A stretch of 64,000 nucleotides of DNA from a virus. The stretch's first letter is position 1. Each line of letters starts with the position of its first letter. The notes beneath the pieces were generated by a model that was given only the letters and a program-made list of their open reading frames with translations, had not been told where the DNA came from and did no database searches. Shown here in pieces: positions 1 to 64,000 of this stretch. A program made the translations under genes and the position numbers. The stretch lies in IMG/VR virus record IMGVR_UViG_3300029305_003442; one strand, given 5' to 3'.

Positions 1-3000
1 ACTTTAGATACTTTAACATATTCAAGAAAAACAGAGCCCTTTATGGATAATGCTAAACGAATTGATTTGCGTTGGATACATAAAATGCCAGATGGTTCAT
101 TTAAATCAATTACTAAAGCAGATGCCGCAAATTATAATTTTAAAATTTAGTGGTATAGATATCAATTAGGTTCTCCATCATCTGACCAATATTCAGATAA
201 AGAGTGGATTTGGTTATCTGACCAAGAAACAGAAAATGGAAAAAATTATTATACAATTTAGGATGAAGATTGGTTAAATAATAATTAGCAATATAAAGGT
301 AGTGAAAAATATCCCGGTTTCTTTAACACTTGGTTAATTCCAGATGTAGCTTTAAGTACGGAAATGGTTAAAGCAATTATATTTTTTAATGGAAAACCAA
401 TTAGAAGTAATATTGTTATTTTAACAAATGAAAATGAAGTTGTAAGTCGTCCAACAGTAGATGCTTTAGAAGCACTTACAATTCATTGTAATAATGGATT
501 AGATGAAGCTGGGAATCCAATTTATTCTGAAAATTATTTAATTTATAATGAAGGTAATGAATTAATTGATGAATCTTAGGCAAAACAACCACGGCAATTT
601 GAATTAAAATTTGACCCAGAAGTTCCAACAGAAGATGATGAAACTGAAGGTTTAAAATATGCTAGATATGTGGAATGGCGCATTCCAAAAAAGAATACGA
701 TGATTGTAATGCCGCCAGATTATAAAGATAATAATGCTTTAGAAGATATTACAGACCCAAATTATTATATTATTAGACGTAATGGTGTTTTAAACGCAGA
801 TAATAAATATGTTGTTTATAACAAACAATCTTTTAGAATAGATAATTATTATTCTGCTGAAAAATCAAATAATACTGTTTAGTGTACTATTGAAAAAGAA
901 CCAAATACTTTTTATATAGCAACTGTTGATTTATTGTTTGGAGTTGCTGGTACTACTGGAACAGATACAACTTTAGTAATTAATTTTGATGATAGTAGTC
1001 TTGGAGCAATTGATTCTGCTATATCTGGTAATACAATTATTACTGCTAAATTATATGATAGTGAAAATAAAGATATTACACAAACAGTTATTAATCAAGA
1101 TTGTGTTTTTGAATGGAAATGGAAAGGTAAAGAAGAATATCCTCATGAAAAAATACAAATACTTTCTCCGGAAGATTATTCAAATGAATTAAAAGAACAA
1201 GTACAAAAAAATCAATGCGTTATTAGTAATACAAATAATCTACCTTTAGAACTTAATGAATGGAATATTCTTTAGTGTACTGTTACAGGATGGCAAGATT
1301 ATCCTTTAGTAGCTTATTTTGCTATTCCATTAAAAAGAGACCCTGATAATGCAGAAAAGCGCACTTTATTTATGGAGGGCGCCACAAGAATTATCTATGA
1401 TTCTGCTGGTACGCCTTCTTATTATAAAAATCCATATAAATTATTTTATTCTGAAGATATGACAGGAGAAAATCAAGAAGGTGAAATAGAAACTATTAAT
1501 CAAATTAATCAATATTTAGAAGATTAGGATATGATTAAAGATGATTATAGTATACGTTGGTAGCTTTCTTATCATCCAGATTTTTAGACTCTAAATTACT
1601 TACCTTCTATTGGAATTTCTAAAAATTATAATGATGGTTTTAATTATAATATTGGATTAAAAGCTATTAATGTATATGTTAAAGGTTGCGAAGATTATAT
1701 TACAATTAATTGTATAGATAAAAATGGAACTATATTATGGTCTTAGCCTTTATTAATTTTACAAAATAAATATCCATCATCTATGCTAAATAAATGGGAT
1801 GGTTCATTATCTATTGATGAAACGGAAAATGCTATTTTAGCAGCTAAAATTGCCGCAGGTAGTAAAGATTCTGAAAATAGATTTAGTGGTGTTATTATTG
1901 GTGATTGGGGCAATAAAAAAGAATATAAAGAAACTACTAATGCTTCTGTAGCGGAAATTGGAGTTTATGGTTTTCATGAAGGAGCTATGAGTTTTGGTTT
2001 CAAAGAAAGTGGAAAAGCTTTTATAGGTAAAGATACTCGCGGACGTATTCATTTTGATGGAAATGATGGTTCAATTTATTCTTCTGCTTGGATTGCTAAT
2101 TCAGAAGATAATCATAGAGGATTGTATTTGGATATTGATGATGGTAATATTCAAATGCGATAGGAGTATGGTTCTGCAAATATAACCACCTTTATACAAG
2201 TACCTGTAAATACTATTAATTTTAAATCTAATATATATTATGCTTTTCAAGAATATATATTAAGTAAAGAAGGATATAGTGCCAGTAAAACTTATTATGA
2301 ACCATATGGATATAAATTAGTTGATATTGAAGCCGGTGGATATGAACCTGGTATATATTATAAAAGAATAGAATCTTCATCTACTACTGGTTCTGGTGAT
2401 AATGCTGAAAATATTAAAATAACAGAATATGTTTTAGATAATGAATCTTTTAATCCAACTAAAAATTATTATTATGTATCTGCTTTTAAAGAAAGTTCAG
2501 TGAGTGCTTCTTCTTATTAGATTAATAAATATTATATTAAACAAGAGCCAAATAAAGATGAAGCAACAGGTCAAATTTTAATAAATTCATTGATTCCAAA
2601 AGAACAGACAACTTATTATAAACCTTTTTTAACTTATTATGAATAGACAGAAATTTCTCCTAATAAATATATTGATTTAGCAACTAGTTCTAATGAAACT
2701 GATTATAGAAACGTTTATCCTCTATCTATTGGATATGAAAAAAATGTTTATGAGCGTGCATTTAGAGTAAGTTGGGATGGAACTATTTATGTAGAAAATG
2801 GTGAATTTAATGGTGAAATTCATGCTACTTCTGGAACTTTAGGAGATTTGGAAGTAACAGGAACGCTTATAGGTGGAACAATTGTTGGTGGTGATATTTC
2901 TGGTGCTTGGATTAGTGGTAGTACTATTGAAGGTAGTAGAGTATACGCTGATGATTTAATCTGTTATAATGGTAATATTGCTGGTTGGCGCATTACTGAA

Positions 3001-4362
3001 AATTATTTAAGAAATAGTAATGGAACAATTGTTTTATATTCAGATGGTGAGCGTGGAGAATTGGCAAAATTTGGTGGATGGAAAGTTACTAAGCTTGGTT
3101 TTGAAAATCGTCTTGGAACTTATAAAGATGCGAATAATATTCGCACCACAAATAATTTTAGTTATTTAAAAGGCGGATTGATTAGTGGTAGTATTTTAGA
3201 TACGCCATCTGGAGGTATGCTTTTAGCTGGTAAATTTAAATTAGCTTAGAGTTTAAGCCCTGGTTTTGATACTAATACTGGTATTGGAAATTATTTGCTT
3301 ATTCCTGGCACTATTGGTGTTGTAATGTCTGATATTGAAACTAGTCCAGATGCACCAGAATATTATGGTATAGGATTAGAATATGGTGAACCTGTTAAAT
3401 CTTAGATAAAAGCTACAGCTGTTAATGTTGGTATGCGTTATGGAGTTAATCAATCTATATGGATTACTGATAAAACAATCGGTTTAGCATCTAATGATGG
3501 TGATTTGTCATTACATTCAAAAGATACTATTCATGAATATTCAGCTACAAATGTTAATATTGGTGTAAAAACTGGTTCAGGTAATAATGTTGAGTTATAT
3601 CCTTAGTTTGAATCTTATTATAATGGTGGATAGCAAACAGTAACATTAGGAATTTATGCCAATGATGCTATTACTATTGGTCCAGTAGAAAATGTAGGGG
3701 CTTCTTCTTGTAATTTAATTAGAATAGGAGAACAGTCTTTAACTATGGATATTGGAGCATGGACTACTAATTTAAATATTGGATAGAATGCATAGAATAT
3801 TAAAATAGGAGAATTTGCTAAAACTATCATAGAAATTGGTAGTTCGGTTCCAGAGATAAAACTTGGAAGTACTTCCACACCAAAAATAACTATTGGTAAT
3901 ACGGGAGCCGCTGTTACAATATAGAATAATTTGTTGACACCAAATTTATATATTACAAATGGTTTTGAAGCTATTGATGGTAATTATGCTGGAACTATAG
4001 TTATGAATCCTTCAGGTTTTTAGTTATAGGGCGGTTCCTTTACTTTAGGAAAAGATGGAGCTTCTGTTAGTGGAAATATTTATTATAATGGTTCTATTAA
4101 TCTTGAAAATGGATTTAATGTTACTAGTGGTTCAATAAATATTGGCGGCGGAGAAAATGAAGCAATATTTGGTTCTATATATTATTCTGGTAGTGTTAAT
4201 TTAGGTAATGGTTTATAGATAACTACTGGTGATTTAAATATTAAAGGTGGTAGTGCTACTTTTGATAATAATTTAGAAGTAAAAGGAACTGTAACTATTG
4301 GAAGCGGATTGACGGTTGCGGAAGGAGCTACTGTTACTGGAGTTTATGCTACTTTATTATGA
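1..4362 (+). CDS. Large tail-fibre-like virion protein, 5'-partial (starts upstream of window); TAG read as sense codon
   Basis: Frame 1 is open from nt 1 to TGA at 4360-4362; track ORFs 364-579, 670-882, 934-1275, 1783-2163, 2848-3249 are all in frame 1 separated only by TAG. C-terminal Gly-rich beta-repeat motifs (TGTLIGGTIVGGDISGAW; NIGGGENEAIFGSIYYSGSVNLGNG) typical of phage fibres. Confidence 0.6.
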
Positions 4363-4372
4363 GGTATAATAT

Positions 4373-5284
4373 ATGGCAACAATGAGTAAAATGACTTTAA
4401 TTAAACCTGTTGGTGATACAACAGTATCTTATGAAGGAGAATATATTAAAGATGAATATGGAACAGAATCTAAATCATCAGCCTCTAGCGGAGATAGAGT
4501 AAGACGAGAAAGAAATTTTGTAGCACAACGAAAAGGACCTATAGATGAATGGGATGATGGAACTACTGGAAATTATGCGCGAATTGAAGGTGGTAATGGC
4601 TCAGAAACCCAAACTTTATATGGAAGATATAGATATTAGTATAGAATTGGAAAATGGTATTGGAAAATTACACAATCATCTGAATTTAACGATCGTACTG
4701 GTACAGTAAGTTCTTTAAATGAAATTCCAGATGATTATACAACAACTTCTAATGGTAATAGATATACTTATACTTATACATGGGATTCTCGTACAATAAA
4801 AGATGGATATTGGAAAGATGATATAGATGAACCTTATGAAGATGAAAATGGAAATATTGTATAGCCAGAATGGATTGATACCAGCTATAAGGTTTATGAT
4901 TGGGAGGAATATTTACAAATAGAAACATTAACTATTGATTGGGATTCTTGGACTCCAGAATATACAAAAGAAGATATGAGTGTAGATTTTTATCCGCGTC
5001 CTAAAGAATTTTATTTTATTAATTGTGAACCAGGAAAGCAATGGAGAGTTGATTTAGGTCTTTAGACTTTAATTACTAATATTTATGAATTTCAAGAATA
5101 TGCTAATTAGTGGTAGGCTTGGAAAAAATAGGAGGAATATAGCAATACTCCATCATTTGATTCTCCACTTTCAGCTGCTAATATTAATTCAATTTATTCT
5201 TCTCTTGGTCATTCAGGAGGATATTCTTCAGGAAATGAAGTTAGAGCTAGTATATTTAAAGGATTGGAATCTATCATTAATTAA
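4373..5284 (+). CDS. Hypothetical virion-module protein (303 aa, about 6 in-frame TAG)
   Basis: ATG 4373 10 nt after upstream TGA; frame 2 open through TAGs to TAA 5282-5284. Confidence 0.5.
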
Positions 5285-5318
5285 TAAAAAAATAATTGAG
5301 ATAAAGGAGATATATATT

Positions 5319-5492
5319 ATGACTTATGAAGATATTCAAATATTAGTAAATATTTATAATACATTTTTAAGCGTTCATACATGTGGTGAAGATAGTTTTG
5401 CTATGACAGATTGTATGCGTGCTTTATATAAATTTATTGAAACTAAACAAAAGGAATATATAGAAAAGCAAAAAGAGAATAAGGAGGCTTAA
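5319..5492 (+). CDS. Small hypothetical protein (57 aa)
   Basis: AAGGAG 9 nt upstream of ATG 5319; ends TAA 5490-5492; stop overlaps next gene's SD. Confidence 0.45.
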   Translation: MTYEDIQILVNIYNTFLSVHTCGEDSFAMTDCMRALYKFIETKQKEYIEKQKENKEA

Positions 5493-5493
5493 T

Positions 5494-7740
5494 ATGAGCA
5501 AATTATATCCTCCAGTTATAGAGGGAATTATTCCAGCTTTTTATGCTAATGATGATGGGACAGCTAATTTAGTTGTCCCATTTTCTATGAATCCAACGGT
5601 TTCTTGGAATGAAGTTGGAAATATTAGATTACAATTAAAAACAGTTCAAAATTTAAATACTAGATTAGTTGATACTGGATATTATACAGATTATTCTCAA
5701 AAAGATAAAGTAATATTTTCTTTTACAGAGCAAGCAGTAAAAGAAAATTTAAATATTGGTTAGCATTATAAAGTATAGATAGCTTATCAAGATATTGATG
5801 GTGATGTCGGTTATTATTCTACTGTTGGTGTAACTAAATTTACAACAAAACCTACAATATATATTGAAAAATTAAATGAAGGAATAAAAAATTATCATCA
5901 GTATACTTATATTGGAGTATATTAGAATATTGATGATAAAACTGAAAAAGTTTATTCTTATGAATTTAATTTATATGATGAAAATGATAATTTAATTAAA
6001 GCATCTGGTGAATTAATTCATGACAATACTTAGAACACTTAGTTGGGTTCTTCTGAAGATAAATTTGATATTATGAATGATTTAGAAGAAGATAAAATTT
6101 ATTATTTGTAGTATAAAGTAACTACAATTAATGGATTAATTGAATATTCTCCTAAATATAAAATTGTCCAAAAGTAGAGTATTAATGTAGATATTGAAGG
6201 TAAATTGACTGCGGAAATAGATAATGAAAACGGGTGTGTGCGATTATTTATTAATACTGATAATTCAGTAATTGGTGATTTTAGTATTTTACGCTCTAGT
6301 ATTAAAGATAATTTTACTGAATGGCATGAACTATATAAATTTAGATTGTAGAGTCAATTAACACATAGTTTAGAATGGATTGATTTTAATGTAGAACATG
6401 GTGTAGAATATAAATATGCTTTATAGCAATTTAATTTGCATGGAATAAAATCAAATAAACAATTTTCTGTTAATATTATTCCATATTTAGAACATTCTTA
6501 TTTATATGATGGTGAGCGTTAGTTAAAAATTAAATTTAATCCTAAAGTTTCTTCTTTTAAAGATATTTTATTGGAACAAAAAACAAATACTATTGGTGGT
6601 AAATATCCTTTTATTTTTAGAAATGGAAATGTTTATTATAAAGAATTTCCAATATCAGGATTAATTTCATATCAAACAGATGAAGATTTTTTCTTTATTA
6701 AGCAATAGGAAGAATATAACCCAGTAACTGATTTAACTTATGAAAATATTAATAATGAAAAAGATTTTAAACTTGAAGTATTAAAATGGTTAAATAATGG
6801 AAAACCTAAACTATTTAAGTCGGCAACAGAAGGTAATTATATCGTAAGATTAATGAATGCGTCTTTGTCACCGACCGATTAGCTTGGCCGCATGCTCCAT
6901 ACTTTTAGTACAACTGCTTCTGAAATCGCAGATTATACATATAATAATTTATTAAAGTATAATATTGCGAGAATAAAAAATCCTATTTATTAGAATCTTA
7001 ATTGGAAAACTATTGATATTGCTACTGGATTAAGAGAAGATTATACTGTTAATTTTAATGAAAAAGAAATGTTATCTTTATTAATTGAGGATGGAACCCC
7101 AGAAGATTTAATTTTAATTATAAATGGTTAGAATTATGGTGATGCTAATCCAAATAATAATACATATATTGATAGTGACAGTAATGAAGTAGAAGAAGAA
7201 ACTGATGATGGATTAGATGATTCACATGAAAATACTTGGGTTGAAGGTGTCGGCACTAATAATTATGGTTTTATTGCTTAGTTAGATAAAAATGGTAAAT
7301 ATTATATAGATTTAAAAAACAATAATAAAATTACAGCAGTGCGTTTTATAGATAAATCAATTTAGCATAAAGGTTTATTAACATATGCTTATAATAATAT
7401 TGAAAAAAGTAATTTTGATTCAATTATTGATTATAGTTTAGAAAGTTTTTCAAATTCTTATGAAAATTAGATTTATGATATAATATCTGAAATTGAAGAT
7501 GAAAATACTACAATACAAAAAATTAATTATATTTATGCTACTGTAACTAGTTCCAATAGAGACACAACATTAAATTTTGATGGAAGAATAATTGATGTTA
7601 AAGATATTGGAGAATATAAGATGTATGATTTTGATAGAGTCAATTCTTTAATTTGCGGTGACGGACTTAGAGTTGATATTATGTGCGATATTCAAAAAGT
7701 TATTTATGAAGGAGGAGAAAATAATGAATCCTCTACTTGA
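5494..7740 (+). CDS. Virion structural protein (748 aa), tail/baseplate module, TAG-recoded
   Basis: AAGGAGG SD, ATG 5494; frame 1 open through about 20 TAG to TGA 7738-7740; 17-nt overlap with next gene. Confidence 0.6.
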
Positions 7741-10534: not shown

Positions 10535-10551
10535 TAGAAGGAGGAATTAAA

Positions 10552-10887: not shown

Positions 10888-10912
10888 AAATTATAAGAAA
10901 GGAAAATATTAA

Positions 10913-11941: not shown

Positions 11942-11966
11942 TTTAATATAAAGGAGATAAAAAATT

Positions 11967-14195: not shown

Positions 14196-14217
14196 TTGTG
14201 CGAAAGGAGAAATTAAT

Positions 14218-52060: not shown

Positions 52061-52074
52061 AATTATTACCTCTC

Positions 52075-53616: not shown

Positions 53617-53630
53617 TAAACATCATCCTC

Positions 53631-54146: not shown

Positions 54147-54181
54147 TGAATACTCCTTTCATTTTTATATTTTATATAAAT

Positions 54182-54210
54182 ATTATACCATATTTTTATA
54201 TAAAAATCAA
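54182..54210 (-). promoter_or_regulatory. Promoter-family member (TTGATT-17-TATAAT)
   Basis: fwd aatcaa 54205-54210, attata 54182-54187. Confidence 0.5.
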
Positions 54211-54236
54211 GGCAAGATTTTTCAACCTTGCCTTTT
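54209..54236 (-). terminator. Hairpin terminator directly upstream of promoter
   Basis: AAGGCAAG-atttttcaac-CTTGCCTT. Confidence 0.35.
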
Positions 54237-54243
54237 ATATTTA

Positions 54244-55233: not shown

Positions 55234-55253
55234 TTTTAATTACCTCCATTTAA

Positions 55254-56186
55254 TTAAAACTTAAAAGTATCATTAGAAGCAGCCTGCGGAATCGCATTCT
55301 GACTAGCCTTATATTCTTCCTGACGCTGCTTAACAGTAGCCAGATAAGTTTCACGAGCAGCCATTGCTTCCTTCAATTCAGTAGCAGTAATACCACTATC
55401 ATCATCCCAAAGATAAGGCTCCTTGGCAGCACCAGTAATTACAAAATCACGATGAGAAGTAGGCGTTTCCTTAACGAGAGTATCACCAAACGCAGATTCC
55501 TCAGTAGTCTTTTTTACAATAGTTTCAGAAATCTAACGACCCCAAATCTTTGTAAACACAGGATTACTCTTAGAAGCATTCAAATCTTCAAAATAATTCA
55601 TTGCATTAGGATTAAGTGCAGTAAATTCAAAAGGAAGAAGTGCCTTACTAAAATCAAAAATATAACCCTTAACAACTACCTTTTCAGGCTGCTCCTTTTC
55701 AGGATTTGCTTCAATACGTGCCGCACCCTCAATAAGCATATCGCATTCAAAAGTATTGCGAGTCTTTTCATCTTCTGCCAAACTATCAGTAAGATGTACA
55801 AAACCGCCTTCATTGCGCTTAGCACTTACCAATTCATCTGTTCCATTTCTATTGGAATAAAATTCATTCAGTCCAAGAGCAGAATCAATTCTTACCTTAC
55901 CTGCCTTATCAGGACCATCCTTCATATAAGTTCCAATAGCACCATCAATAATTGCTTTAAGAGTTGTATAGGTGGCATTCGGAGAACCCTTCTTTGTAGT
56001 TGCAGTTACATATGAAAAATGAACAGGAACAACATTAGTTACTGCGTTATCAGTTGCTACACTCAAAGTACCGGAAATAAATTCAGTTCCAGGATTCTTA
56101 GACTGCTTTCCAGAAACCTTAACTTCAAGAGCGTGTTCATAAATAATACCTTCAATATGTGTCTTATTAATAAGATTAGCTTTCAT
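55254..56186 (-). CDS. Putative ssDNA-binding protein (SSB/DUF2815-like), 310 aa, 1 TAG
   Basis: Track ORF 55533-56186 continues in frame past TAG for 92 codons to TAA; acidic DDDSG tail region; adjacent to Sak4. Confidence 0.4.
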
Positions 56187-56217
56187 AATTTAATTTTCTC
56201 CTTAATTAATACATTTT

Positions 56218-56583
56218 TTAATTAATTTCAATATTTTTTCCATTTTCAGTTAAAGAATAAATTGTGGGGTCTTGACCTACTTTTTCTACAAAGCCATCTG
56301 TTACAAGTTTTCTCATAGCTCCTGAAACTGTTTTTGAAGAAATAAAAAGTCCTTCTCCAATATCCTTTGCTTTCCAATTTTCAGTATCAAGATTATCTTT
56401 CATATACTGAAGAACAAGTTTACCATTGTCTGTAAACATTGGCTTCTCAGTTACCTCAATATTTTTAAATACTTTCCAATAAGCCAATGCTTCTTCGTTC
56501 ATTGGAGTAGGATATGCTTCAATTGCCATTTCAACATACTTAATAAATTCTGCTTTTTTAGACATTTTAAAACTCACTTTCAA
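56218..56583 (-). CDS. Hypothetical winged-helix-like protein (121 aa)
   Basis: Track ORF. Confidence 0.4.
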   Translation of the reverse strand: MKVSFKMSKKAEFIKYVEMAIEAYPTPMNEEALAYWKVFKNIEVTEKPMFTDNGKLVLQYMKDNLDTENWKAKDIGEGLFISSKTVSGAMRKLVTDGFVEKVGQDPTIYSLTENGKNIEIN

Positions 56584-56609
56584 ATTATCTTTTTTAATTT
56601 TCTATAAAT

Positions 56610-56638
56610 ATTATATCATATTTTTTTATAAAAATCAA
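56610..56638 (-). promoter_or_regulatory. Promoter-family member (TTGATT-17-TATAAT)
   Basis: fwd aatcaa 56633-56638, attata 56610-56615. Confidence 0.5.
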
Positions 56639-57463
56639 TTAAGAGTTTTTTAATTCATCAATAAAGATAAATTGTTGAGCATATGGAAGTGAGCGAGCCA
56701 TTTTAATAAAACTTTCAGTTATAAAATCATCTCCATCGCCAGACCATTCAGTTAATTTGTGAAATCTACGCTGACTAGGAGAGCACATTGCATAAGCATT
56801 TTCATATGTGAATGTACAAGTGCGTGTTTGAAGCCATGCTTGAGAATTCCATCTAACTAATTCTTTCCAATATCTTTTATCATTTGTATCATTATATCGC
56901 TGACGTAAAAATTCAAGAAATGGAATTAAATGATTCTCTGCCATTAAGGCAATATCTGTATCTTCAATTTGAGGATTATAATCATCAGTTTCAAAGCAGT
57001 CAATTGTAATTGGTTTGCTCGTAAGTTTATGCATAGTGCTTGTTGAATTAGCTACCGTTCCTACTTTGTAGGTGTCATATTCTTTCCACCAATATAGAGG
57101 AGCAGTAATGTCAACACAAACCATGATTTGCCGCATAAATTTACGGTGTTCAGAACCTGCTTTAATCAAAGTTTGCGCAAGTTTCATATCTTTTGGTCCA
57201 ATAGCAGCATATTCATAAAGACCTCTATCTTCATATATAACTACATCTTTTAAAAATTTATCTAAATCTACAGAAGTAATAGTAGAACATTGTAATTCTT
57301 CATTGTAATTATGCTTATTTAAGACATCGGTTGCTACATCTACTACATTATCCCAATTACCTAAACCAAACTAACTATCACTTAAATGCCAAGACTCTTT
57401 AGGGTTGCGCATTCCACGCAGTGCGCCTTCAAAATTAAATACTCTAATATTTTCAAATTTCAC
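56639..57463 (-). CDS. ThyX-like (flavin-dependent thymidylate synthase family) protein, 274 aa, GTG start, 1 TAG at 57371-57373; RHR motif not evident
   Basis: GSEHRKFMRQIMV...APLYWWKEY resembles the ThyX core (ETPFEHIVFTF...APIFVARQW) but the RHRxxS signature is replaced. Confidence 0.35.
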
Positions 57464-57465
57464 TG

Positions 57466-57768
57466 TTAATCATCCTCACTTAAAGTATATCCAGCAATAG
57501 AATTTTTATAACAATAATGTTGAGTTAAACGTTTCATAAACATTTCTAATTCATCAATATAAAAAATTTTATCTTCTTCCCATTCATCTAAATGGTCTTC
57601 AATAAAATCTGAATAAGAAACAAATTCAATACCAATGATACCATAAGCTTTAGCCTTTTCACTTAAAGCAATTGGATTTGCGCAAATAATTGCGCCATTT
57701 GTTTCTTTTGCTTTAAGCATAAGCTTTTTTGTCTTTCCACTTCCGCGGGAATCAATAACTCTAAACAT
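57466..57768 (-). CDS. Hypothetical protein (100 aa)
   Basis: Track ORF. Confidence 0.4.
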   Translation of the reverse strand: MFRVIDSRGSGKTKKLMLKAKETNGAIICANPIALSEKAKAYGIIGIEFVSYSDFIEDHLDEWEEDKIFYIDELEMFMKRLTQHYCYKNSIAGYTLSEDD

Positions 57769-57769
57769 A

Positions 57770-58759
57770 TTATTTGTTACCTCGTGTCATATTATAACCA
57801 AATGTTTCACTTTGATAATATTTAATCCAAAATTTTTCTTTTTCATTAAGTTGCGTTCTATCACATTCTTCAAGAATTTCAAAAGAGAAATTTTCTACTT
57901 TATCACTTTTCATAGCAGTATATAATTTATTGTTTGAACCATCAATACCTAAACCAGCTTTAATATGTGTTTTAAATCTATCAGCAATATTAACTGATTG
58001 TCCTATATAACACATTTGATTATTTAAATTAGTAATTTTATAAATACCAATTTTATTTTCTGTACCTATTAATCTGCCAATTAAATCACTTGTAGGTTTT
58101 TCATAATAAGTTTTCCAAATAATTTTATTTAATGGTTCTTCATTTCTTAAATAAGGAATTATTGAACGCAATTTTTCAATTTCATTTTTATCTGTATCAG
58201 ATAATTGTATTTTATAAAATTCTTTTTTATTGTTTTCTTCTAAAGTTCTTTTATTCGCTTGAATAGCCGCATTTACAATAGAAGTCTAATCATTAATTTT
58301 TTGTTCCAAAAGAGATAAAGTATCCTAATGCTATTTTATAGTTTCTGCGGTTTGCTGCGCAAGTTCTTCCATTAAATTAAAATATTCTTCTTCACATTGC
58401 TTTTTATTCTTTTCAAATTCAATTCGCATATTTTCAGTAGATAATTCAAATTCTTTTTCCGCAATCTATTTACTTTGTTTATAAATAACTTCTCCAGCTT
58501 GCTTTGCCTATTCTTCAATTAACATAATACTTTTCTATGTCTCTTCTCTTTTGGATTCTAAAAATTTTATATTTCCTTTTAAATTTAAAGAATCTAATTT
58601 TAATGATTGATTTTCATTTGTCAATATTTCATTTTCTTTTTGTAATTCTTCGTTTTTAAATGCTATTTCTTTATTATAAGTAATATTTTTTTTACCTTTT
58701 AATAAATAAAAACAAAGCATTCCAAATAGAAAACTTAAAATACATAAAAATATTGTCAT
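57770..58759 (-). CDS. TM-anchored coiled-coil protein with C-terminal GIY-YIG nuclease domain (329 aa, 6 in-frame TAG)
   Basis: Track ORFs 58535-58759 (TM + coiled coil) and 57770-58171 (IGIYKITNLNNQMCYIGQSVNIADRFKTH) are in one frame (990 nt); intervening 122 codons verified open except TAG. Confidence 0.5.
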
Positions 58760-58814
58760 ATTTTAGAAAAATTAAGGGATAGATGTTTAGTCTATCCCTA
58801 TATTTATATTATAA

Positions 58815-59084
58815 TTATTCTGCTTCCTCAGCATCAGGGTCAAAACTCATACCTGCAGGAGTAAGGGACAAGAACTTAACTGCCTTGTGAGTACCATCAT
58901 CCAACTCAATTTCAGCAGGAGTACGAAGACCAAGACCCTTTCTCTGGATAGCAGAGGTAAAAATGCCATCTACCTAACGCTTTTCAATACCAAGTGCCTC
59001 TGCAACATCAGCAGCAGTAACATTAGCACCATTAACTTCCTTCAAATAATTAAGAACCTTCTTAGAATTTTCCTTCATAGCCAT
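58815..59084 (-). CDS. Hypothetical protein (89 aa, 1 TAG), GC-richer
   Basis: AGGAGA SD; ATG 59084; verified to TAA 58815-58817. Confidence 0.4.
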
Positions 59085-59161
59085 AATAGTAAAATCTCCT
59101 TTAAATTATAAATATTTTTTTAATTTTAAATTTTTTAATTAAGCTTTTTGCTTATGTAAAT

Positions 59162-59190
59162 ATTATACCAAAAAATTTTTTAAATGTCAA
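59162..59190 (-). promoter_or_regulatory. Perfect consensus promoter TTGACA-17-TATAAT (minus)
   Basis: fwd tgtcaa 59185-59190, attata 59162-59167. Confidence 0.5.
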
Positions 59191-59383
59191 ATTTTTTTGA
59201 CGATAAAATCTCTTGAACCATTTCATCAATAATGGTCATATCTTCAAGTTTATCTACATGACTTGATAGATTAAAAATTTCTGCTTCTGCTTTTTTTACT
59301 TTTTGTGGGTCATTACTATTTTGAATAATCCATTCAGCTTTAGCAATTTTATTTGCGAGATTTTTACGTTCTTTATTTTTCAT
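59180..59383 (-). CDS. Small hypothetical protein (67 aa)
   Basis: Track ORF; GGAAGAA SD. Confidence 0.4.
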   Translation of the reverse strand: MKNKERKNLANKIAKAEWIIQNSNDPQKVKKAEAEIFNLSSHVDKLEDMTIIDEMVQEILSSKKFDI

Positions 59384-59414
59384 AAAATTTTCTTCCTTAA
59401 TCTTTACTATATAT

Positions 59415-59443
59415 ATTATATCATAAATTTTTTAAAAAGTCAA
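59415..59443 (-). promoter_or_regulatory. Promoter-family member (TTGACT-17-TATAAT)
   Basis: fwd agtcaa 59438-59443, attata 59415-59420. Confidence 0.5.
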
Positions 59444-59454
59444 AAAATTTTGAT

Positions 59455-61407
59455 TTATTTTAAAAAATTTTTTTCAAATTCTTCTTCCGTAATAATCGGA
59501 ATACCAAGCTTTTGAGCAGATTGATTTTTTCCAGTAGTAGAAGCAATATCATTATTAATTAAATAACTTGTATTTTTGCTTACACTATCCATTACTTTTC
59601 CGCCCATATTTTCAATAATTAATTTTAAATCATCACGTTTTTTATAATTATTTAATTTACCAGTAATAACAAACTTTAATCCATCGCAAGTTTTTTCAAT
59701 TTCTTCATTAATTATAGTATTTTGAATTGGAGGACAAATATATTTTTCATATATTTCATCTGCTTCACTATAATCAAAATTCCAAATAGCTAAAGTTTTT
59801 GATTCCGCAAAACCATCTAATTTAGAAAAATCAAATTTTTCATTTATCATATTCCTAAAGTTTAAATAAGTAGAACATTTCTCTATTAAAATTTTAGCTA
59901 CAGAATTTCCAATAAGAGGAATACCAAGAGCAGATATAAAAGAAACATCATCACATATCTTAGCTTCTTCAATCGCATTTAAGATTTTATCCACAGAAGC
60001 GATTCCAAAACCTGGTTTTTCAATCCATTCATCTCTATAATCTTTTAATGTAAAAATATCTTTTATATTTTCAATCCAATTCCAATCAATTAATTTTTCT
60101 AAAGTAGCTTTAGACAAACCTTTAATATTTAAACCTTTTTTTGAACAAAAATGGTCTAATTTATTAAGAAATTTACCTTCACAATTAAGATTATTACATA
60201 CTAATACAGTGGAACAATTTTCTGTAACTGTAATAGTTTCTCCACCACAAATAGGACATTGTCTTGGAATATCAATAATTAAATCTTGAATATAACAATT
60301 ATCACTTTTTTCTGCTCGTTCAATTTGAGGAATAATCATATTTCTTTTAGAAACCCAAATTTTTTGATATACTTGCGGCATATCACCTAAAGTTTCTTTA
60401 AGAATACTAAGATTATGAAGATTTGCTCTTTCCACCATTGTACCATCAATTTCTACTGGATTAAATACTGCTACTGGTGTTAATACTCCTGTACGACCCA
60501 TTGTATATTCAATATTTAATAATGAGGTTTCATATTCTTCATCATAGAATTTAAATGCCATAGCATTTTTAAAATGGTGGTCAGTAGCTCCTAAACTTTT
60601 TCCATATTCAATATCATTAAATTTAAAAACTATTCCATCAATAGGATAATTTAAATGATGTGCGGCTTCAATAATTTCATCATCAATTGTTTCCCAATTG
60701 AAATCATTGTCATATCTATAAGGAACAATAGAAAAATTTAAAAAAGATAATTTTTTTAATTTTTCTGATAATAATTTAATATCATTAAAACCTTCAATAA
60801 CATCCCAAGCAATAAAACATAAATTACGTTTAGCACATTCTTTGGAATCAAGTAATCTAATACTACCTGCCGCAAAATTACGAGGATTTTTATACATTGT
60901 TTTAAATAATTCATTAAAAGTATCAAGAGGGCAAATAATTTCTCCATCAACAATTAACTCATCTTTATAATCAATATATTTAGGGATATTATCAACAACC
61001 CAAGCATTATGAGTTATATCTTCTCCCTCAACTCCATTACCACGAGTTTCTGCGGAAACCAATTTACCATTTAAATATCGTAATGAACAAGTTAAACCAT
61101 CCATCTTAAACATACATAAATAATTTTTATTTTGTTTAAGAAAATTTTTAATTACATTAATATCTTTAGTCTTATCAAGTGAAAGCATTAAATGATTATG
61201 TTTAACTTTTTTTAATTCATTTATTACATTATAAACGATTTTTTGTGTGGGTGAATCATCATAAATAATTCCAGTCTTTTCTTCTAAATGAATTAATTCA
61301 AAAAACTTATCATCATATTCTTTATCAGAAATAGTTGGATGACCTTCATCATATTCTTTTGTTCTGGCATTTAAATAATCAATCAATTCTCTGATAATTA
61401 ATTCCAT
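59455..61407 (-). CDS. ligA: NAD-dependent DNA ligase
   Basis: 650 aa; adenylation KMDG motif (CMFKMDGLT), OB/Zn/HhH and C-terminal BRCT-like region; no TAG. Confidence 0.8.
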   Translation of the reverse strand: MELIIRELIDYLNARTKEYDEGHPTISDKEYDDKFFELIHLEEKTGIIYDDSPTQKIVYNVINELKKVKHNHLMLSLDKTKDINVIKNFLKQNKNYLCMFKMDGLTCSLRYLNGKLVSAETRGNGVEGEDITHNAWVVDNIPKYIDYKDELIVDGEIICPLDTFNELFKTMYKNPRNFAAGSIRLLDSKECAKRNLCFIAWDVIEGFNDIKLLSEKLKKLSFLNFSIVPYRYDNDFNWETIDDEIIEAAHHLNYPIDGIVFKFNDIEYGKSLGATDHHFKNAMAFKFYDEEYETSLLNIEYTMGRTGVLTPVAVFNPVEIDGTMVERANLHNLSILKETLGDMPQVYQKIWVSKRNMIIPQIERAEKSDNCYIQDLIIDIPRQCPICGGETITVTENCSTVLVCNNLNCEGKFLNKLDHFCSKKGLNIKGLSKATLEKLIDWNWIENIKDIFTLKDYRDEWIEKPGFGIASVDKILNAIEEAKICDDVSFISALGIPLIGNSVAKILIEKCSTYLNFRNMINEKFDFSKLDGFAESKTLAIWNFDYSEADEIYEKYICPPIQNTIINEEIEKTCDGLKFVITGKLNNYKKRDDLKLIIENMGGKVMDSVSKNTSYLINNDIASTTGKNQSAQKLGIPIITEEEFEKNFLK

Positions 61408-61440
61408 AATAAAATCCTTTATGATTTATTTTCTATATAT

Positions 61441-61469
61441 ATTATATAATATTTTTTTAAAAATATCAA
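61441..61469 (-). promoter_or_regulatory. Promoter-family member (TTGATA-17-TATAAT) upstream of ligA
   Basis: fwd tatcaa 61464-61469, attata 61441-61446. Confidence 0.45.
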
Positions 61470-61482
61470 TATAAGGAAGCTA

Positions 61483-61755
61483 TTAAGCTTCCTTATAAAT
61501 TCCATATTTCATATCCTCTAATAATTGTTTATAAAAATTACAAAATGGAGAATCTGAAAAAGATATAACACTATCATTTATAAATAAAATACCTTTTATA
61601 TTAGCATTCCCATTTGTAATAGTTACAGATTCTGAAGTAATATATTTATTTTTTATTTCTAAAAAAGAAATATCGTCTTTGTAATTAGGACAATTGTCTT
61701 CCCACAAATCTAAAATATGACGAAAATCTTTATTTGTATAAATTATTTTTATCAT
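61483..61755 (-). CDS. Hypothetical protein (90 aa)
   Basis: Track ORF; stop lies in hairpin AAGGAAGCT-atta-AGCTTCCTT. Confidence 0.35.
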   Translation of the reverse strand: MIKIIYTNKDFRHILDLWEDNCPNYKDDISFLEIKNKYITSESVTITNGNANIKGILFINDSVISFSDSPFCNFYKQLLEDMKYGIYKEA

Positions 61756-61757
61756 TT

Positions 61758-64000
61758 TTATACTTTACTCACTGAAATAATTTTATTATTTTTGATAATT
61801 TGATTACCAACTGAAACCCTTCCAAGAGTTGGAATTTCATTAGATTTTATACAAATTGAATTTTTATCACCGCAGATTAAAATGTTATCTTCATTAGATA
61901 ACAAGGCGGCCGCAGATACAAAACCTGTCGTTGTGGTAGGTTTATAACATAACAAACCTTTACCACCCTTCTTTTGGATAGGAGTTTCACTAATTAAGTA
62001 TTTTTTACCTAATCCATTTTCAGTAAAGATAGCAATCATATCTTTTTCATCTCTAATGACAAGAGTAGTAATTACATTATCATCTTTACTTAAATTAATT
62101 CCTTTAACTCCTTGAGTTATGCGTCCCATAGCTCCAACTTCCATAGAATTAAATTTAATTGTATAACCATTTTTCGTGACAATAATGACAGGTTCATCTT
62201 TAATTAAATTGACAGAAACTAATTCATCATCATCTTTAATATTAATTGCCGCAATTCCACTCTTTTTTGAAGTTTTAATATATTCGTCAAGCGCAGTTTT
62301 CTTTACTAAGCCATTCTTTGTCGTAAATAATACATATTTAGCATCAGTATCTCTATAAATAGAATAAATTACTGTAGGATTTTCATTTGGTTCCATTGTA
62401 ACCAAAGACTTAATAGATTGACCTTTTGCCGTATTATTTCCAACAGGAATATCGTTAACTAATAAACGATACATTCTTCCTTTATCAGTAAAAATCATTA
62501 GAGAATCAATTGTATTAGTGCGGATTACCATTGAAGTAATATCATCTTGCGTGCGCACTCCTACACCATTTCTTCGTTGTGTACGGAAAGAAGAACTAGG
62601 AACTCTTTTAATTAAGCCACTTTCTGTCATAACAACTACACATTTTTCAGGCTCAACAAATTCAATTTCTTTTTCTTCTTTATTTTCAGAAATATTATTT
62701 AACTTTGTCCTTCTGGCATCACCATATGCGTCCCGCAAAGAAGATATTTTTTTAATTAATATTCCATCACGATAAGATTTATTTCCAATAATACGATTAC
62801 ATTCTTCAATAAAAATTTCCTTTTCTTGCTTCTCTTGGATAAGTTCATTTTTATCAATACGAGTTAATTTTACTAATTTCATATCTAAAATAGCATCTGC
62901 TTGAATTTCATCTATATTCAAGAAAGAAACAAGACTTGTACGAGCAATATTTTTATTTTCTGAATTTTTAATTAATTTAATTACTTCATCAATTTTATCA
63001 ATAGCAATAATTAAACCTTCAATAATATGTAATCTTTTTTCAGCTTTATCTTTATCAAAATATGTGGCATTAAGTAATACATCTTCTTGATGAATTACAT
63101 AATATTTAATTAAATCATAAAGAGAACAAAGCTTTGGTGTTCCATTTACAATAAAATTCATATTAAATGATAGAGTTGTCTGTAAATCAGTTAAAGCAAA
63201 TAATTTACTTAAAGCAGTTTGGATACATCCTTCATCTTTTACTGTGAATACAAGTCTATTAATACCAACTGATGATTCATCATCAAAATCAATAATACTT
63301 TTTTCAAGTTCTTCAATATTATCGTTAATTTGTTCTTTAATTTTATTTCTATATGTTCTATATGGAATTGAATTAAAAATAATTTTATTATTTTCAATTT
63401 CATAATCACCACGAACTTTTAACGAAACATTTGATTTACCAGTAGCATATGCTGAACGCACTTCTTTAATATTGATGATTTGACCTCCTAAAGGAAAATC
63501 CGGTCCAGGAATATCTTTCATTAATTCATCAATATTAATATTTCCTTCATTTTCAATATAATGAATAATAGCATTACAAACTTCTGTTAAATTATGAGGA
63601 AGTGAATTGTGTGCCATTGAAATACCAATAGCCTGTCTACCATTACAAAGAGCATTTGGGAATAAACCAGGAAGAACTACAGGCTCCATAAATTCACCAT
63701 TATAAGTCTCTTTTTCTGGAATAACTTTCTTTTTATAATCATTCATCATTAAATCAGTATATAAAGAAGGTTTTGCTTCAGTATATCTGGATGATGCTAC
63801 CATATCATTAGATTCTTGAGTTCCTAATGAACCTTGTCCTTTAACAAGTGGATATCTCATTAAAAACTCTTGTGACATTTTACATAAGACTCCATAACAA
63901 GAAATATCACCATGAAAATATGATGTTGCTAACGTGCTACCAACGATAGCATTACATTTCTTTGTTTTTCCTTTAGAATCCATTTTAAGATAATCTTCCA
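61758..64000 (-). CDS. Type IIA topoisomerase A subunit (GyrA/ParC / T4 gp52-like), N-terminus beyond window end
   Basis: YFHGD, MRYPLVKGQGSLG, GRQAIGISMAHNSLPHNL motifs; frame open upstream of 63983 to window edge. Confidence 0.75.
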   Translation of the reverse strand, partial: EDYLKMDSKGKTKKCNAIVGSTLATSYFHGDISCYGVLCKMSQEFLMRYPLVKGQGSLGTQESNDMVASSRYTEAKPSLYTDLMMNDYKKKVIPEKETYNGEFMEPVVLPGLFPNALCNGRQAIGISMAHNSLPHNLTEVCNAIIHYIENEGNINIDELMKDIPGPDFPLGGQIINIKEVRSAYATGKSNVSLKVRGDYEIENNKIIFNSIPYRTYRNKIKEQINDNIEELEKSIIDFDDESSVGINRLVFTVKDEGCIQTALSKLFALTDLQTTLSFNMNFIVNGTPKLCSLYDLIKYYVIHQEDVLLNATYFDKDKAEKRLHIIEGLIIAIDKIDEVIKLIKNSENKNIARTSLVSFLNIDEIQADAILDMKLVKLTRIDKNELIQEKQEKEIFIEECNRIIGNKSYRDGILIKKISSLRDAYGDARRTKLNNISENKEEKEIEFVEPEKCVVVMTESGLIKRVPSSSFRTQRRNGVGVRTQDDITSMVIRTNTIDSLMIFTDKGRMYRLLVNDIPVGNNTAKGQSIKSLVTMEPNENPTVIYSIYRDTDAKYVLFTTKNGLVKKTALDEYIKTSKKSGIAAINIKDDDELVSVNLIKDEPVIIVTKNGYTIKFNSMEVGAMGRITQGVKGINLSKDDNVITTLVIRDEKDMIAIFTENGLGKKYLISETPIQKKGGKGLLCYKPTTTTGFVSAAALLSNEDNILICGDKNSICIKSNEIPTLGRVSVGNQIIKNNKIISVSKV

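What the first reader, a model, noticed from the sequence alone, without database searches (positions are those of the whole stretch)
1..64000. Genome-wide TAG sense-codon recoding; TGA/TAA retained as stops
Throughout the window, consecutive track ORFs lie in the same frame and are separated only by TAG, never by TAA or TGA. Examples are 364/670/934/1783/2848 in frame 1 and the ten ORFs 14218-20370 in frame 1, where every gap was translated. Genes then end at a TGA or TAA followed by an SD and a start codon. This makes the fragmentation a genetic-code feature, not pseudogenisation. Low-GC SD-using phages with TAG recoding are still poorly characterised.
Basis: seen in the sequence. Interest (0 to 1): 0.8.

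Follow-up and report, generated by a model that had tools for sequence, protein, structure and literature searches.

The report
Phage that reads TAG as glutamine

Summary
Read with TAG as a sense codon, the window resolves into 62 genes at 96% coding density. It holds 171 in-frame TAGs in 36 genes and no in-frame TAA or TGA; the genes end in TAA (53) or TGA (9). Single Pfam domains and standard-code homologues span the TAGs, so the fragments are single proteins, not pseudogenes.

TAG most likely encodes glutamine. Gln is the commonest residue opposite TAG in standard-code relatives, with a log-likelihood gap of at least 36 to any other amino acid. CAA/CAG are the commonest codons opposite TAG in relatives. 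One TAG sits on a Gln present in 119 of 120 aldo/keto-reductase homologues.

Usage is strongly uneven. Late + strand genes carry 13.5 TAG per 1000 codons and early − strand genes 2.6. The large replication enzymes have none.

This matches published accounts of code 15 phages, in which late and lysis genes are recoded. The closest described relative is the TAG→Gln phage Phass-1, and the replication module is SPβ-like.

No suppressor tRNA, release factor or aminoacyl-tRNA synthetase was found in the window or in 82 kb of the at least 99.5-kb genome, so the decoding machinery remains unseen.

Verdict: a new member of a known kind, of modest interest.

The parts
1..33775 (+). Late (structural and auxiliary) gene block. 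It has 25 + strand genes, 21 of them with in-frame TAG. There are 145 TAGs in 10,738 codons (13.5 per 1000), and TAG makes up 37% of TAG+CAA+CAG.
1..4362 (+). The 3' 1453 codons of a 1785-aa tail-fibre-like protein (P0121). There are 23 in-frame TAGs inside the window (28 in the whole gene). The stop is TGA.
   Evidence: Homologues P0122-P0136 align across TAG positions.
5494..7740 (+). 748-aa virion protein (phrog_30026) with 17 in-frame TAGs. The stop is TGA.
7706..10534 (+). 942-aa tail or baseplate protein (phrog_32343 and phrog_1887 'tail protein') with 12 in-frame TAGs. It is 27.6% identical to a region of Phass-1 that is annotated there as 5 fragments.
14218..20370 (+). Called genes on an identical ENA contig (L013, this gene) and on the relative L004 that match it in position and size carry a Pfam LRR_5 hit; neither was aligned to it here.
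24852..26210 (+). Radical-SAM enzyme with 3 in-frame TAGs. The Pfam Radical_SAM hit (aa 11-160) spans two of them. The standard-code orthologue in L001 aligns over aa 1-448 at 50% identity.
26211..27599 (+). SPASM-domain radical-SAM maturase-like protein with 6 in-frame TAGs. One lies 4 codons before the TAA stop, and standard-code orthologues continue past that position.
28155..29270 (+). Aldo/keto reductase with a 2x[4Fe-4S] domain and 8 in-frame TAGs, one of them at codon 3. The TAG at aa 170 aligns with Gln in 119 of 120 homologues. The TAG at aa 115 aligns with Gln or His.
30733..31236 (+). Gln-rich 167-aa protein with 11 TAGs interleaved with 12 CAA/CAG codons (for example ...EEXQXVXXXMNSNX...).
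33802..64000 (-). Early, replication and nucleotide-metabolism block. It has 36 − strand genes here (a 37th, 29743-30447, lies inside the late block), and 14 of them carry TAG. All 37 − strand genes together carry 26 TAGs in 9,822 codons (2.6 per 1000), and TAG makes up 8% of Gln-like codons.
34306..34797 (-). RuvC-like resolvase at the far end of the − strand block, with 4 in-frame TAGs. The Pfam RuvC hit (aa 4-147) spans three of them.
36433..39841 (-). NrdG, a 209-aa unknown protein and NrdD (anaerobic ribonucleotide reductase). None has an in-frame TAG.
40673..45733 (-). Split DnaE (PHP/N-terminal half at 44309-45733, finger/HhH half at 40673-42985), with no TAG in either half. A GIY-YIG/NUMOD3 homing endonuclease (43303-44085, 1 TAG) lies between them.
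45994..47184 (-). RecD/UvrD-like helicase with no TAG.
48726..50471 (-). RecJ-like exonuclease with 2 TAGs, both within the first 34 codons.
50787..53616 (-). Primase-like protein (50787-51887), a small ORF, and DnaB helicase (52075-53616). None has a TAG.
57770..58759 (-). GIY-YIG endonuclease-domain protein with 6 TAGs in its N-terminal region (residues 75-158). It is the most TAG-rich gene of the early block.
59455..64000 (-). NAD-dependent DNA ligase (59455-61407), a 90-aa ORF, and the C-terminal 746 codons of GyrA (61758-64000; the gene's start lies beyond the window end, at about 64151). None has a TAG.

Best explanation
The window is part of a large (at least 99.5 kb) tailed phage from gut or rumen metagenomes. 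It has a very long tape-measure protein and an SPβ-like replication module.

The phage uses genetic code 15: TAG is translated as glutamine, and TAA and TGA terminate.

TAG codons are concentrated in late genes (tail and other virion proteins and a radical-SAM cassette) and in the lysin gene just outside the window. The large replication and nucleotide-metabolism enzymes avoid TAG.

The likely mode of action is as follows. On entering a standard-code Bacillota host, only TAG-free genes can be translated in full. Once a TAG-decoding activity builds up, the late and lysis genes become translatable. That activity is most probably a phage-encoded tRNA with a CUA anticodon, charged by the host glutaminyl system. 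Under this model the code acts as a timing lock.

Shown here:
- TAG is a sense codon and TAA/TGA are stops.
- TAG corresponds to Gln.
- TAG usage differs sharply between early and late genes.

Inferred from the literature and from relatives:
- The suppressor tRNA.
- The host's genetic code.
- The temporal switch.
For: TAG is sense:
- Coverage by ORFs of at least 900 nt rises from 31% to 73% only when TAG is read as sense.
- Eight TAGs, no TAAs and no TGAs are flanked by at least 100 open codons on both sides.
- The map has 62 genes at 96% density, all ending in TAA or TGA.
- Pfam domains and standard-code homologues span TAGs.

TAG is Gln:
- Opposite TAG in standard-code relatives (Enterococcus phage EF1, a 244-kb ENA contig, and metagenome or MAG loci that showed no recoding signal), Gln is the top residue at 21 of 77 positions. 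The log-likelihood gap to the next amino acid is at least 36.
- In relatives at 45% identity or more, the codon opposite TAG is CAA/CAG in 137 of 328 cases and TAG itself in 29 of 328.
- The aldo/keto-reductase TAG at aa 170 aligns with Gln in 119 of 120 homologues.
- Counting TAG as Gln brings Gln content to 3.7% in late genes and 3.3% in early genes, against 2.3% and 3.0% without it.
- TAGs are interleaved with CAA/CAG in a Gln-rich protein.
- There is no +4 nucleotide context bias that would indicate signal-dependent read-through.

Early/late bias:
- TAG against CAA+CAG is 145/249 in + strand genes and 26/295 in − strand genes. Fisher's exact test gives an odds ratio of 6.6 and p = 1e-20.
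- The Amidase_2 lysin has 11 TAGs in 543 codons and sits among TAG-free GyrA, GyrB and RNase H.

Precedent:
- The same pattern and model are described in 10.1101/2021.08.26.457843.
- TAG→Gln has been confirmed by metaproteomics in crAss-like phages (PMC9523058).
- The related phage Phass-1 carries three tRNA-Sup-CTA genes (PMC10607447; re-detected).
Against: - No tRNA of any kind was found in the window or in 82.4 kb of this genome (window coordinates -10,995 to 71,407). ARAGORN results are; Rfam at gathering threshold; Rfam at E ≤ 1 on the window.
- No release factor or aminoacyl-tRNA synthetase domain was found in the window proteins scanned: most ORFs of 100 aa or more plus a few smaller ones. 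The two largest late proteins, 1-4362 and 14218-20370, were not run against Pfam.
- No tRNA-CUA was found in the flanks of NrdD or PhoH in the TAG-recoded relatives scanned: 47 loci over 6 kb flagged TAG-recoded, though five of the NrdD-set flags look like high-GC or TGA artefacts.
- In Phass-1, two of the suppressor tRNAs lie directly upstream of NrdD. The equivalent spacer here (39842-39911) is 70 bp and empty.
- Fifteen of 37 early-strand genes still contain 1-6 TAGs, so 'early genes are standard-code compatible' is a tendency, not a rule.
- The host, the expression timing and the translated product were not observed.
Confidence: 0.85

Rival explanations
1. The region is a decaying prophage or pseudogenised DNA, and the in-frame stops are inactivating mutations.
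For: Under table 11 the late genes are broken into many short ORFs. JGI gene calls for identical contigs are fragmented in the same way.
Against: - Only TAG interrupts frames; TAA and TGA never do.
- No frameshifts are needed to reach 96% coding density.
- TAG positions correspond to Gln codons in relatives.
- Identical sequence was recovered in several samples on contigs up to 99 kb.
- Many relatives show the same TAG-only pattern.
Confidence: 0.01
2. TAG is a sense codon but encodes an amino acid other than glutamine, for example pyrrolysine, Lys, Glu, Tyr or Ser.
For: - Many TAG positions align with variable residues (K, S, E, N) in distant homologues.
- ARAGORN labels CUA-anticodon tRNAs as 'Pyl' by default.
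- No tRNA from this phage was available to check identity elements.
Against: - Gln wins the likelihood comparison by at least 36 log units once spurious ORFs and the tape-measure protein are excluded.
- CAA/CAG are by far the commonest codons opposite TAG.
- One TAG falls on a near-invariant Gln.
- TAG differs from CAG by a single C-to-T change and is 2.5 times commoner than CAG in this AT-rich genome.
- Every phage TAG reassignment reported so far in standard-code hosts is to Gln (10.1101/2021.08.26.457843; PMC9523058).
Confidence: 0.04
3. TAG remains a true stop, and the long proteins arise only by inefficient, signal-dependent read-through. The normal products would be the short fragments.
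For: - No decoding tRNA was found in the accessible 82 kb.
- A few genes have a TAG within 4-11 codons of the TAA stop.
Against: - With 17-28 TAGs per gene (77 in the tape-measure gene), even 50% read-through per site would give essentially no full-length tail or tape-measure protein.
- There is no read-through context at the +4 position.
- Some TAGs sit at codons 3-9, upstream of catalytic domains.
- Standard-code orthologues continue past C-terminal TAG positions.
Confidence: 0.03
4. The host itself decodes TAG as an amino acid, and the phage simply mirrors its host's code with no code switch during infection.
For: - No phage-borne suppressor tRNA was found so far.
- Related contigs are binned with poorly known low-GC 'Bacilli' and 'Mollicutes' MAGs whose codes were not examined here.
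Against: - TAG is strongly avoided in the large early replication genes and makes up 37% of Gln-like codons in late genes. A uniformly recoded host would not produce that pattern.
- Standard-code and TAG-recoded phages are intermixed among the metagenome and MAG loci recovered with this phage's PhoH and NrdD.
- The surveys cited predict standard-code hosts (Firmicutes and Bacteroidetes) for TAG-recoded phages (10.1101/2021.08.26.457843).
Confidence: 0.04

Closest known systems
Phage Phass-1 and the proposed Phassvirus group (OQ749652; Babkin et al. 2023, PMC10607447)
   Same: - It is a TAG→Gln recoded large siphovirus-type gut phage.
- It has a very long tape-measure protein: 3149 aa there, 3306 aa here.
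- Structural genes lie on one strand and the NrdD/NrdG replication block on the other.
- The tail protein is homologous, at 27.6% identity over 63% of the query.
- Its GenBank CDS annotation is fragmented by TAG.
- The authors place it in a monophyletic group that also contains the standard-code phage Enterococcus EF1.
   Different: - Sequence similarity is remote and there is no nucleotide-level match.
- GC content is 28% here and 44.5% in Phass-1.
- Phass-1 has 36 tRNAs including 3 tRNA-CUA, two of them directly upstream of NrdD. No tRNA was found in the 82 kb examined here.
- The present phage carries a radical-SAM/SPASM cassette and a split DnaE.
Alternatively coded gut-phage clades of Borges et al. 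(crAss-like, Lak, Agate, Garnet, Amethyst, Topaz and others; 10.1101/2021.08.26.457843)
   Same: - TAG is reassigned to Gln in phages predicted to infect standard-code Firmicutes or Bacteroidetes.
- Recoding is concentrated in structural and lysis genes, and replication genes are mostly standard-code compatible.
- Recoded and standard-code phages are intermixed within a clade (here).
- A suppressor tRNA was detectable in only about 40% of TAG-recoded genomes.
   Different: - I could not place this phage in any of the named clades, because no terminase is available in the accessible DNA.
- Its replication module is SPβ-like (DnaE/YorL at 39% identity, plus YorF and YorH domains), which is not crAss-like or Lak-like.
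crAss-like code 15 phages with proteomic proof (Peters et al. 2022, PMC9523058) and block-wise dual coding (Mgcod, 10.1101/2022.06.29.495998)
   Same: - The codon reassignment is the same (TAG→Gln).
- The genome likewise divides into a recoded block and a largely standard-code block.
   Different: - These are an unrelated phage order (Crassvirales, Bacteroidota hosts, podovirus-like).
- No proteomic data exist for the present phage.
SPβ-like and Enterococcus EF1-like large phages (NC_001884, MF001358)
   Same: - The replication module shares the DnaE family (YorL homologue at 39% identity over 99% of the query) and YorF- and YorH-family proteins. RecD-like helicase, DnaB, AAA_24 and NrdD/NrdG are also present here.
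- The N-terminal half of the tail protein is homologous to EF1-like phages at 26-27% identity.
- The genome size class is about 125-142 kb.
   Different: - These phages use the standard code (EF1: no gain from reading TAG as sense).
- They have Bacillus or Enterococcus hosts, and EF1 has 14 tRNAs but no suppressor.

Membership tests
Genetic code 15 (TAG→Gln) recoded phage | In-frame TAG codons interrupt otherwise intact, conserved genes, and reading TAG as sense restores full-length ORFs and normal coding density. | tested here: met
   Coverage by ORFs of at least 900 nt rises from 31% to 73%. The map has 62 genes at 96% density. Pfam domains and homologues span TAGs.
Genetic code 15 (TAG→Gln) recoded phage | TAA and TGA remain terminators and are absent from coding frames. 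| tested here: met
   Reading TGA or TAA as sense gives little or no gain. Among stops flanked by at least 100 open codons on both sides there are 8 TAG, 0 TAA and 0 TGA. Gene ends are 53 TAA and 9 TGA.
Genetic code 15 (TAG→Gln) recoded phage | TAG positions align preferentially with glutamine in homologues that use the standard code. | tested here: met
   Gln is opposite TAG at 21 of 77 positions, with a log-likelihood gap of at least 36. CAA/CAG are opposite TAG in 137 of 328 cases. The aldo/keto-reductase TAG at aa 170 aligns with Gln in 119 of 120 homologues.
Genetic code 15 (TAG→Gln) recoded phage | Recoded codons are enriched in late structural and lysis genes and depleted in early and replication genes. 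| tested here: met
   Density is 13.5 against 2.6 TAG per 1000 codons, with an odds ratio of 6.6 and p = 1e-20. The lysin has 11 TAGs, while the adjacent GyrA, GyrB and RNase H have none.
Genetic code 15 (TAG→Gln) recoded phage | The phage encodes a suppressor tRNA with a CUA anticodon. This is frequent but not universal: it was detected in about 40% of TAG-recoded genomes. | tested here: inconclusive
   None was found in the window or in 82.4 kb of the genome. At least 17 kb, and possibly about 31 kb, could not be fetched. As a positive control, ARAGORN finds the 3 tRNA-CUA genes of Phass-1.
Genetic code 15 (TAG→Gln) recoded phage | Peptide-level evidence that Gln is inserted at TAG. | not testable with these tools
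   This requires metaproteomics of the source samples, as was done for crAss-like phages in PMC9523058.
Phass-1 / EF1 / SPβ-like large siphophage group | Tape-measure protein of about 3000 aa or more, upstream of the tail genes. | tested here: met
   A 3306-aa PhageMin_Tail protein lies immediately left of the window (L013). It has 77 TAGs.
Phass-1 / EF1 / SPβ-like large siphophage group | Homologous structural proteins. | tested here: met
   The tail protein at 7706-10534 hits only Phass-1, MT835469 and EF1-like Enterococcus phages among 50,697 phage records, at 26-32% identity. The homology is weak but specific.
Phass-1 / EF1 / SPβ-like large siphophage group | SPβ-type replication module (YorL-like DnaE, YorF and YorH). 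| tested here: met
   The DnaE C-terminal half is 39% identical over 99% of its length to SPβ YorL and to EF1-like phages. Precomputed Pfam YorF and Phage_SPbeta_YorH hits fall on the window genes.
Phass-1 / EF1 / SPβ-like large siphophage group | Genome of about 125-142 kb with a large tRNA array (14-36 tRNAs). | tested here: inconclusive
   The longest contig is 99,463 bp, and overlapping contigs imply up to about 114 kb. No tRNA was found in the 82 kb examined.
Proposed genus Phassvirus | About 80% or more nucleotide identity to Phass-1 (the three proposed members share 80-86%). | tested here: not met
   Megablast of 44 kb of the window against the phage collection found no match to Phass-1. 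Protein identity is only about 28%. This phage is not a member of that genus.

The most novel reading that the evidence does not exclude
This lineage may have no suppressor tRNA of its own and may decode 171 TAGs in the window (at least 290 in the 82 kb examined) by a mechanism not yet described. Possibilities include reprogramming a host tRNA-Gln, inactivating host RF1, or using a non-canonical RNA.

In support, no tRNA was found in 82 kb of the genome, and no tRNA-CUA was found next to NrdD or PhoH in the TAG-recoded relatives scanned. Phass-1, by contrast, keeps two suppressors directly upstream of NrdD.

How the roughly 60% of TAG-recoded phages without a detectable suppressor tRNA are translated is an open question in the field.
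Probability: 0.15. Interest if true: 0.65.

Novelty: new member of a known kind. Interest (0 to 1): 0.25.

Why it matters
The practical point is annotation. Under table 11 this phage's late genes shatter into hundreds of fragments, as in the JGI calls for the identical contig. Only code 15 recovers its tail, tape-measure, lysin and radical-SAM genes.

Biologically, it adds a low-GC (28%) SPβ/Phass-like large siphophage from gut or rumen samples to the set of TAG→Gln phages. It also gives a clean example of the early/late split. A TAG-rich lysin sits inside a TAG-free early operon, which fits the proposed use of recoding as a lysis-timing lock.

It does not change what is known, unless the complete genome proves to lack a suppressor tRNA.

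Tried and rejected
Attempts to reach the rest of the genome to look for a tRNA-CUA or RF2:
- Exact look-up of the right-end ORF failed because the GyrA gene runs off the window.
- The IMG/VR protein-pattern scan and a 44-mer exact scan found nothing.
- A JGI metagenome exact scan with a 47-mer from the left end found nothing, although the identical JGI contig exists.
- Look-ups of NrdD, LigA and P0121 gave only ±10 kb, reaching window coordinates -10,995 to 71,407.
- My last homology search, with the 38-aa flotillin C-terminus padded to 41 aa, returned only an unrelated 50-aa protein. The last 17-31 kb therefore stayed out of reach.

Other searches that led nowhere:
- Rfam at gathering threshold and at E ≤ 1 gave no tRNA or intron.
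- A search for the sample identifiers in the literature found nothing.

Evidence I considered and set aside:
- The first version of the amino-acid likelihood test included spurious antisense ORFs and the low-complexity tape-measure protein. It gave only a 12.6-unit lead of Gln over Lys. I replaced it with a curated-gene version.
- Q at TAG positions in ENA and Logan proteins (P0001, P0121) is not evidence, because it is the gene caller's assumption.
- MT835469, the best tail-protein hit, is an unannotated, apparently standard-code 176-kb scaffold with 4 tRNAs and no suppressor, so it adds little.
- Thomasclavelia phages TR-TP1 and TR-TP2 share only NrdD at 76% nucleotide identity and are not close relatives.

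Full report
**Observation**

The window is 28% GC. It has two halves of opposite GC skew that meet near 34 kb.

A purely mechanical test shows that TAG, and only TAG, behaves as a sense codon. Coverage by stop-to-stop ORFs of at least 900 nt is:
- 31% under table 11;
- 73% when TAG is read through;
- 33% when TGA is read through;
- 40% when TAA is read through.

I also counted stop codons that have open reading on both sides in the same frame, over all six frames.
- With at least 40 open codons each side there are 54 TAG, 17 TAA and 6 TGA. TAA is three times commoner than TAG overall.
- With at least 100 open codons each side there are 8 TAG, 0 TAA and 0 TGA.

The frame-1 gene ending at 4362 has 23 in-frame TAGs. 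The frame-1 gene at 14218-20370 has 25.

**Gene map**

With TAG as sense, the window holds 62 genes at 96% coding density.
- There are 171 in-frame TAGs in 36 genes.
- 53 genes end in TAA and 9 in TGA.
- An SD-like motif precedes 43 of 60 starts, against 7% of random positions.

The sequence is not an assembly accident. Contigs 100% identical (one 99.995%) occur in several JGI and ENA samples, the longest being 99,463 bp.

**The TAG-joined pieces are single proteins**

- The Pfam Aldo_ket_red hit covers aa 14-278 of the gene at 28155-29270 and spans three TAGs.
- RuvC covers aa 4-147 of 34306-34797 and spans three TAGs.
- Radical_SAM covers aa 11-160 of 24852-26210 and spans two TAGs.
- The listed aldo/keto-reductase homologues, at least some of them bacterial, align over 94-100% of the 8-TAG gene, with one at 91%.
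- A standard-code relative (a 244-kb ENA contig, locus L001) has uninterrupted orthologues of the radical-SAM, SPASM and reductase genes at 43-50% identity.

These results reject pseudogenisation.

**Which amino acid**

Proteins in the ENA and Logan collections already carry Q at these positions (P0001, P0121). That is the gene caller's assumption, so I did not count it.

The independent evidence is as follows.
- In tblastn alignments of curated genes to standard-code DNA, Gln is the commonest residue opposite TAG, at 21 of 77 positions. The subjects were Enterococcus phage EF1, L001, and metagenome or MAG loci that showed no recoding signal. A likelihood comparison using substitution frequencies from the same alignments puts Gln at least 36 log units ahead of Glu, Asn, Lys and Ser.
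- In relatives at 45% identity or more, the codon opposite TAG is CAA/CAG in 137 of 328 cases and TAG in 29.
- The TAG at aa 170 of the reductase falls on a Gln present in 119 of 120 homologues. The TAG at aa 115 falls on a Gln/His column.
- Counting TAG as Gln brings Gln content to 3.7% in late genes and 3.3% in early genes.
- A Gln-rich protein (30733-31236) interleaves 11 TAGs with 12 CAA/CAG codons.
- The base after TAG shows no read-through context.
- TAG (171) is 2.5 times commoner than CAG (67), as expected if C-to-T pressure in an AT-rich genome converts CAG to a now-synonymous TAG.

**Distribution**

The + strand block (1-33775) encodes tail and other virion proteins, a Cys/Ser/Thr-rich protein with two radical-SAM/SPASM enzymes, and a reductase. 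It carries 145 TAGs in 10,738 codons, which is 37% of Gln-like codons.

The − strand block (33802-64000) encodes the following:
- RuvC and dUTPase;
- NrdG and NrdD;
- guanylate kinase;
- a split DnaE;
- helicases, RecJ, primase and DnaB;
- an AAA_24 protein;
- LigA and GyrA.

The − strand genes carry 26 TAGs in 9,822 codons, which is 8% of Gln-like codons. The difference gives an odds ratio of 6.6 with p = 1e-20. The large replication enzymes have no TAG at all.

Just outside the window on the same genome, an Amidase_2 lysin with 11 TAGs in 543 codons lies among TAG-free GyrA, GyrB and RNase H. Two small TAG-bearing genes sit beside it. To the left, the 3306-aa tape-measure gene has 77 TAGs.

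So 'genome-wide' is true of the code but not of its use.

**Decoding machinery**

No tRNA was found by ARAGORN or Rfam in the window or in the additional 18.4 kb of the same genome that I could fetch. No release-factor or aminoacyl-tRNA-synthetase domain was found in the window proteins scanned. The two largest late proteins were not run against Pfam.

ARAGORN does find the three tRNA-CUA genes of Phass-1, so the method works.

About 17-31 kb of the genome could not be reached (see 'tried and rejected'), so absence is not shown.

No tRNA-CUA was seen in the PhoH or NrdD neighbourhoods of relatives (160 loci fetched, 47 of those over 6 kb flagged TAG-recoded). These sample only two loci per genome.

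**Relatives and prior knowledge**

No nucleotide-level relative exists in 50,697 GenBank phage records.
- At protein level, the tail protein hits only Phass-1 (a TAG→Gln phage of 136 kb with a 3149-aa tape measure), the scaffold MT835469, and the standard-code Enterococcus EF1-like phages.
- DnaE is 39% identical to SPβ YorL.
- Scans with this phage's PhoH and NrdD recovered loci from human-gut and ruminant metagenomes, many on 100-200-kb contigs. These are a mixture of TAG-recoded and standard-code loci, with a few that gain from reading TGA as sense. Several are binned into Bacilli, 'Mollicutes' or Clostridia MAGs.

The literature already describes each element:
- widespread TAG→Gln recoding in gut phages of standard-code Firmicutes and Bacteroidetes;
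- enrichment in late and lysis genes;
- intermixing with standard-code relatives;
- proteomic proof of Gln at TAG (PMC9523058);
- block-wise dual-code gene calling (10.1101/2022.06.29.495998);
- the Phass-1 group (PMC10607447).

NCBI taxonomy has a 'Caudoviricetes code 15 clade'.

**Verdict**

The finding is real and correctly interpreted, but it is a new member of a known kind and not a new phenomenon.

The mechanism I commit to has three parts.
- TAG is read as Gln. This is shown here.
- The decoding agent is a phage- or host-derived tRNA-CUA charged by the host glutaminyl system. This is inferred, at roughly 0.6-0.7.
- Recoding serves to delay late and lysis proteins. This is inferred from the gene-class bias and from the literature.

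The only route to higher interest is a closed genome that lacks any suppressor tRNA.

Noticed in passing
window 23652-29270 (+); also L001 3380-11104 and L004 5731-11098: The late module contains a conserved cassette:
- a 389-aa Cys/Ser/Thr/Asn-rich protein with no family hit;
- two radical-SAM/SPASM enzymes resembling peptide maturases (weak hits to PapB, SCIFF and CcpM types; SPASM domain above its cut-off);
- a 199-aa protein of unknown function;
- an aldo/keto reductase with two [4Fe-4S] clusters.

The same cassette occurs in a TAG-recoded relative. It also occurs, with duplicated Cys-rich and SPASM genes, in a standard-code 244-kb contig. It looks like a RiPP-style thioether cross-linking system acting on a large phage late protein.
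   Followed up: partly
window 40673-45733 (-): The DnaE polymerase is split into a PHP/N-terminal gene (44309-45733) and a finger/HhH gene (40673-42985). A GIY-YIG/NUMOD3 homing endonuclease (43303-44085) lies between them, with spacers of 223 and 317 bp. Rfam detected no group I intron.
   Followed up: partly
L009 2341-4743 (about 66.6-69.1 kb in window coordinates, outside the window): An Amidase_2 lysin with 11 TAGs in 543 codons, plus two small genes with 2 TAGs each, is co-oriented with and embedded among TAG-free early genes (PhoH, RNase H, GyrB, GyrA). It forms a TAG-rich lysis island inside a largely standard-code operon.
   Followed up: partly
window 29743-30447 (-): A 234-aa response-regulator/LytR-like protein (weak receiver-domain hit, 1 TAG) is encoded on the opposite strand in the middle of the late block. 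It may be a late-gene regulator.
   Followed up: no
window 47857-48816 (-): A 319-aa protein with a Phage_lysozyme2 (tail lysozyme) domain lies in the early block and has no TAG. This contrasts with the heavily recoded amidase lysin.
   Followed up: no
L005/L008/L011/L012 (JGI) versus L006/L007/L009/L013 (ENA), same DNA: Identical contigs are annotated differently. JGI calls use table 11 and give many fragments (for example RuvC and dUTPase split, PhoH in two pieces). ENA and Logan calls already read TAG as Q and give full-length proteins. Database proteins from these sources therefore cannot serve as independent evidence for the amino acid.
   Followed up: yes
L104-L106, L123, L153, L155, L165 and others (genome-contig scan): Several 100-180-kb TAG-recoded contigs carrying a close NrdD homologue are deposited inside bacterial MAGs (Bacilli, 'Mollicutes', Clostridia, Oscillospiraceae). 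They even appear in a Methanobrevibacter bin and in Bacteroidales bins. They are probably phage genomes that were binned with bacteria.
   Followed up: no
L109, L112, L163, L175, L181: Some loci recovered through NrdD gain ORF coverage when TGA, not TAG, is read as sense. This suggests TGA-recoded phages among the NrdD-bearing relatives, although high-GC loci can give a false signal in this crude test.
   Followed up: no
window 57770-58759 (-): A GIY-YIG domain protein has an N-terminal transmembrane segment followed by a long Lys/Glu-rich region (residues 75-158) that carries 6 TAGs. It is the one markedly recoded gene within the early block.
   Followed up: no
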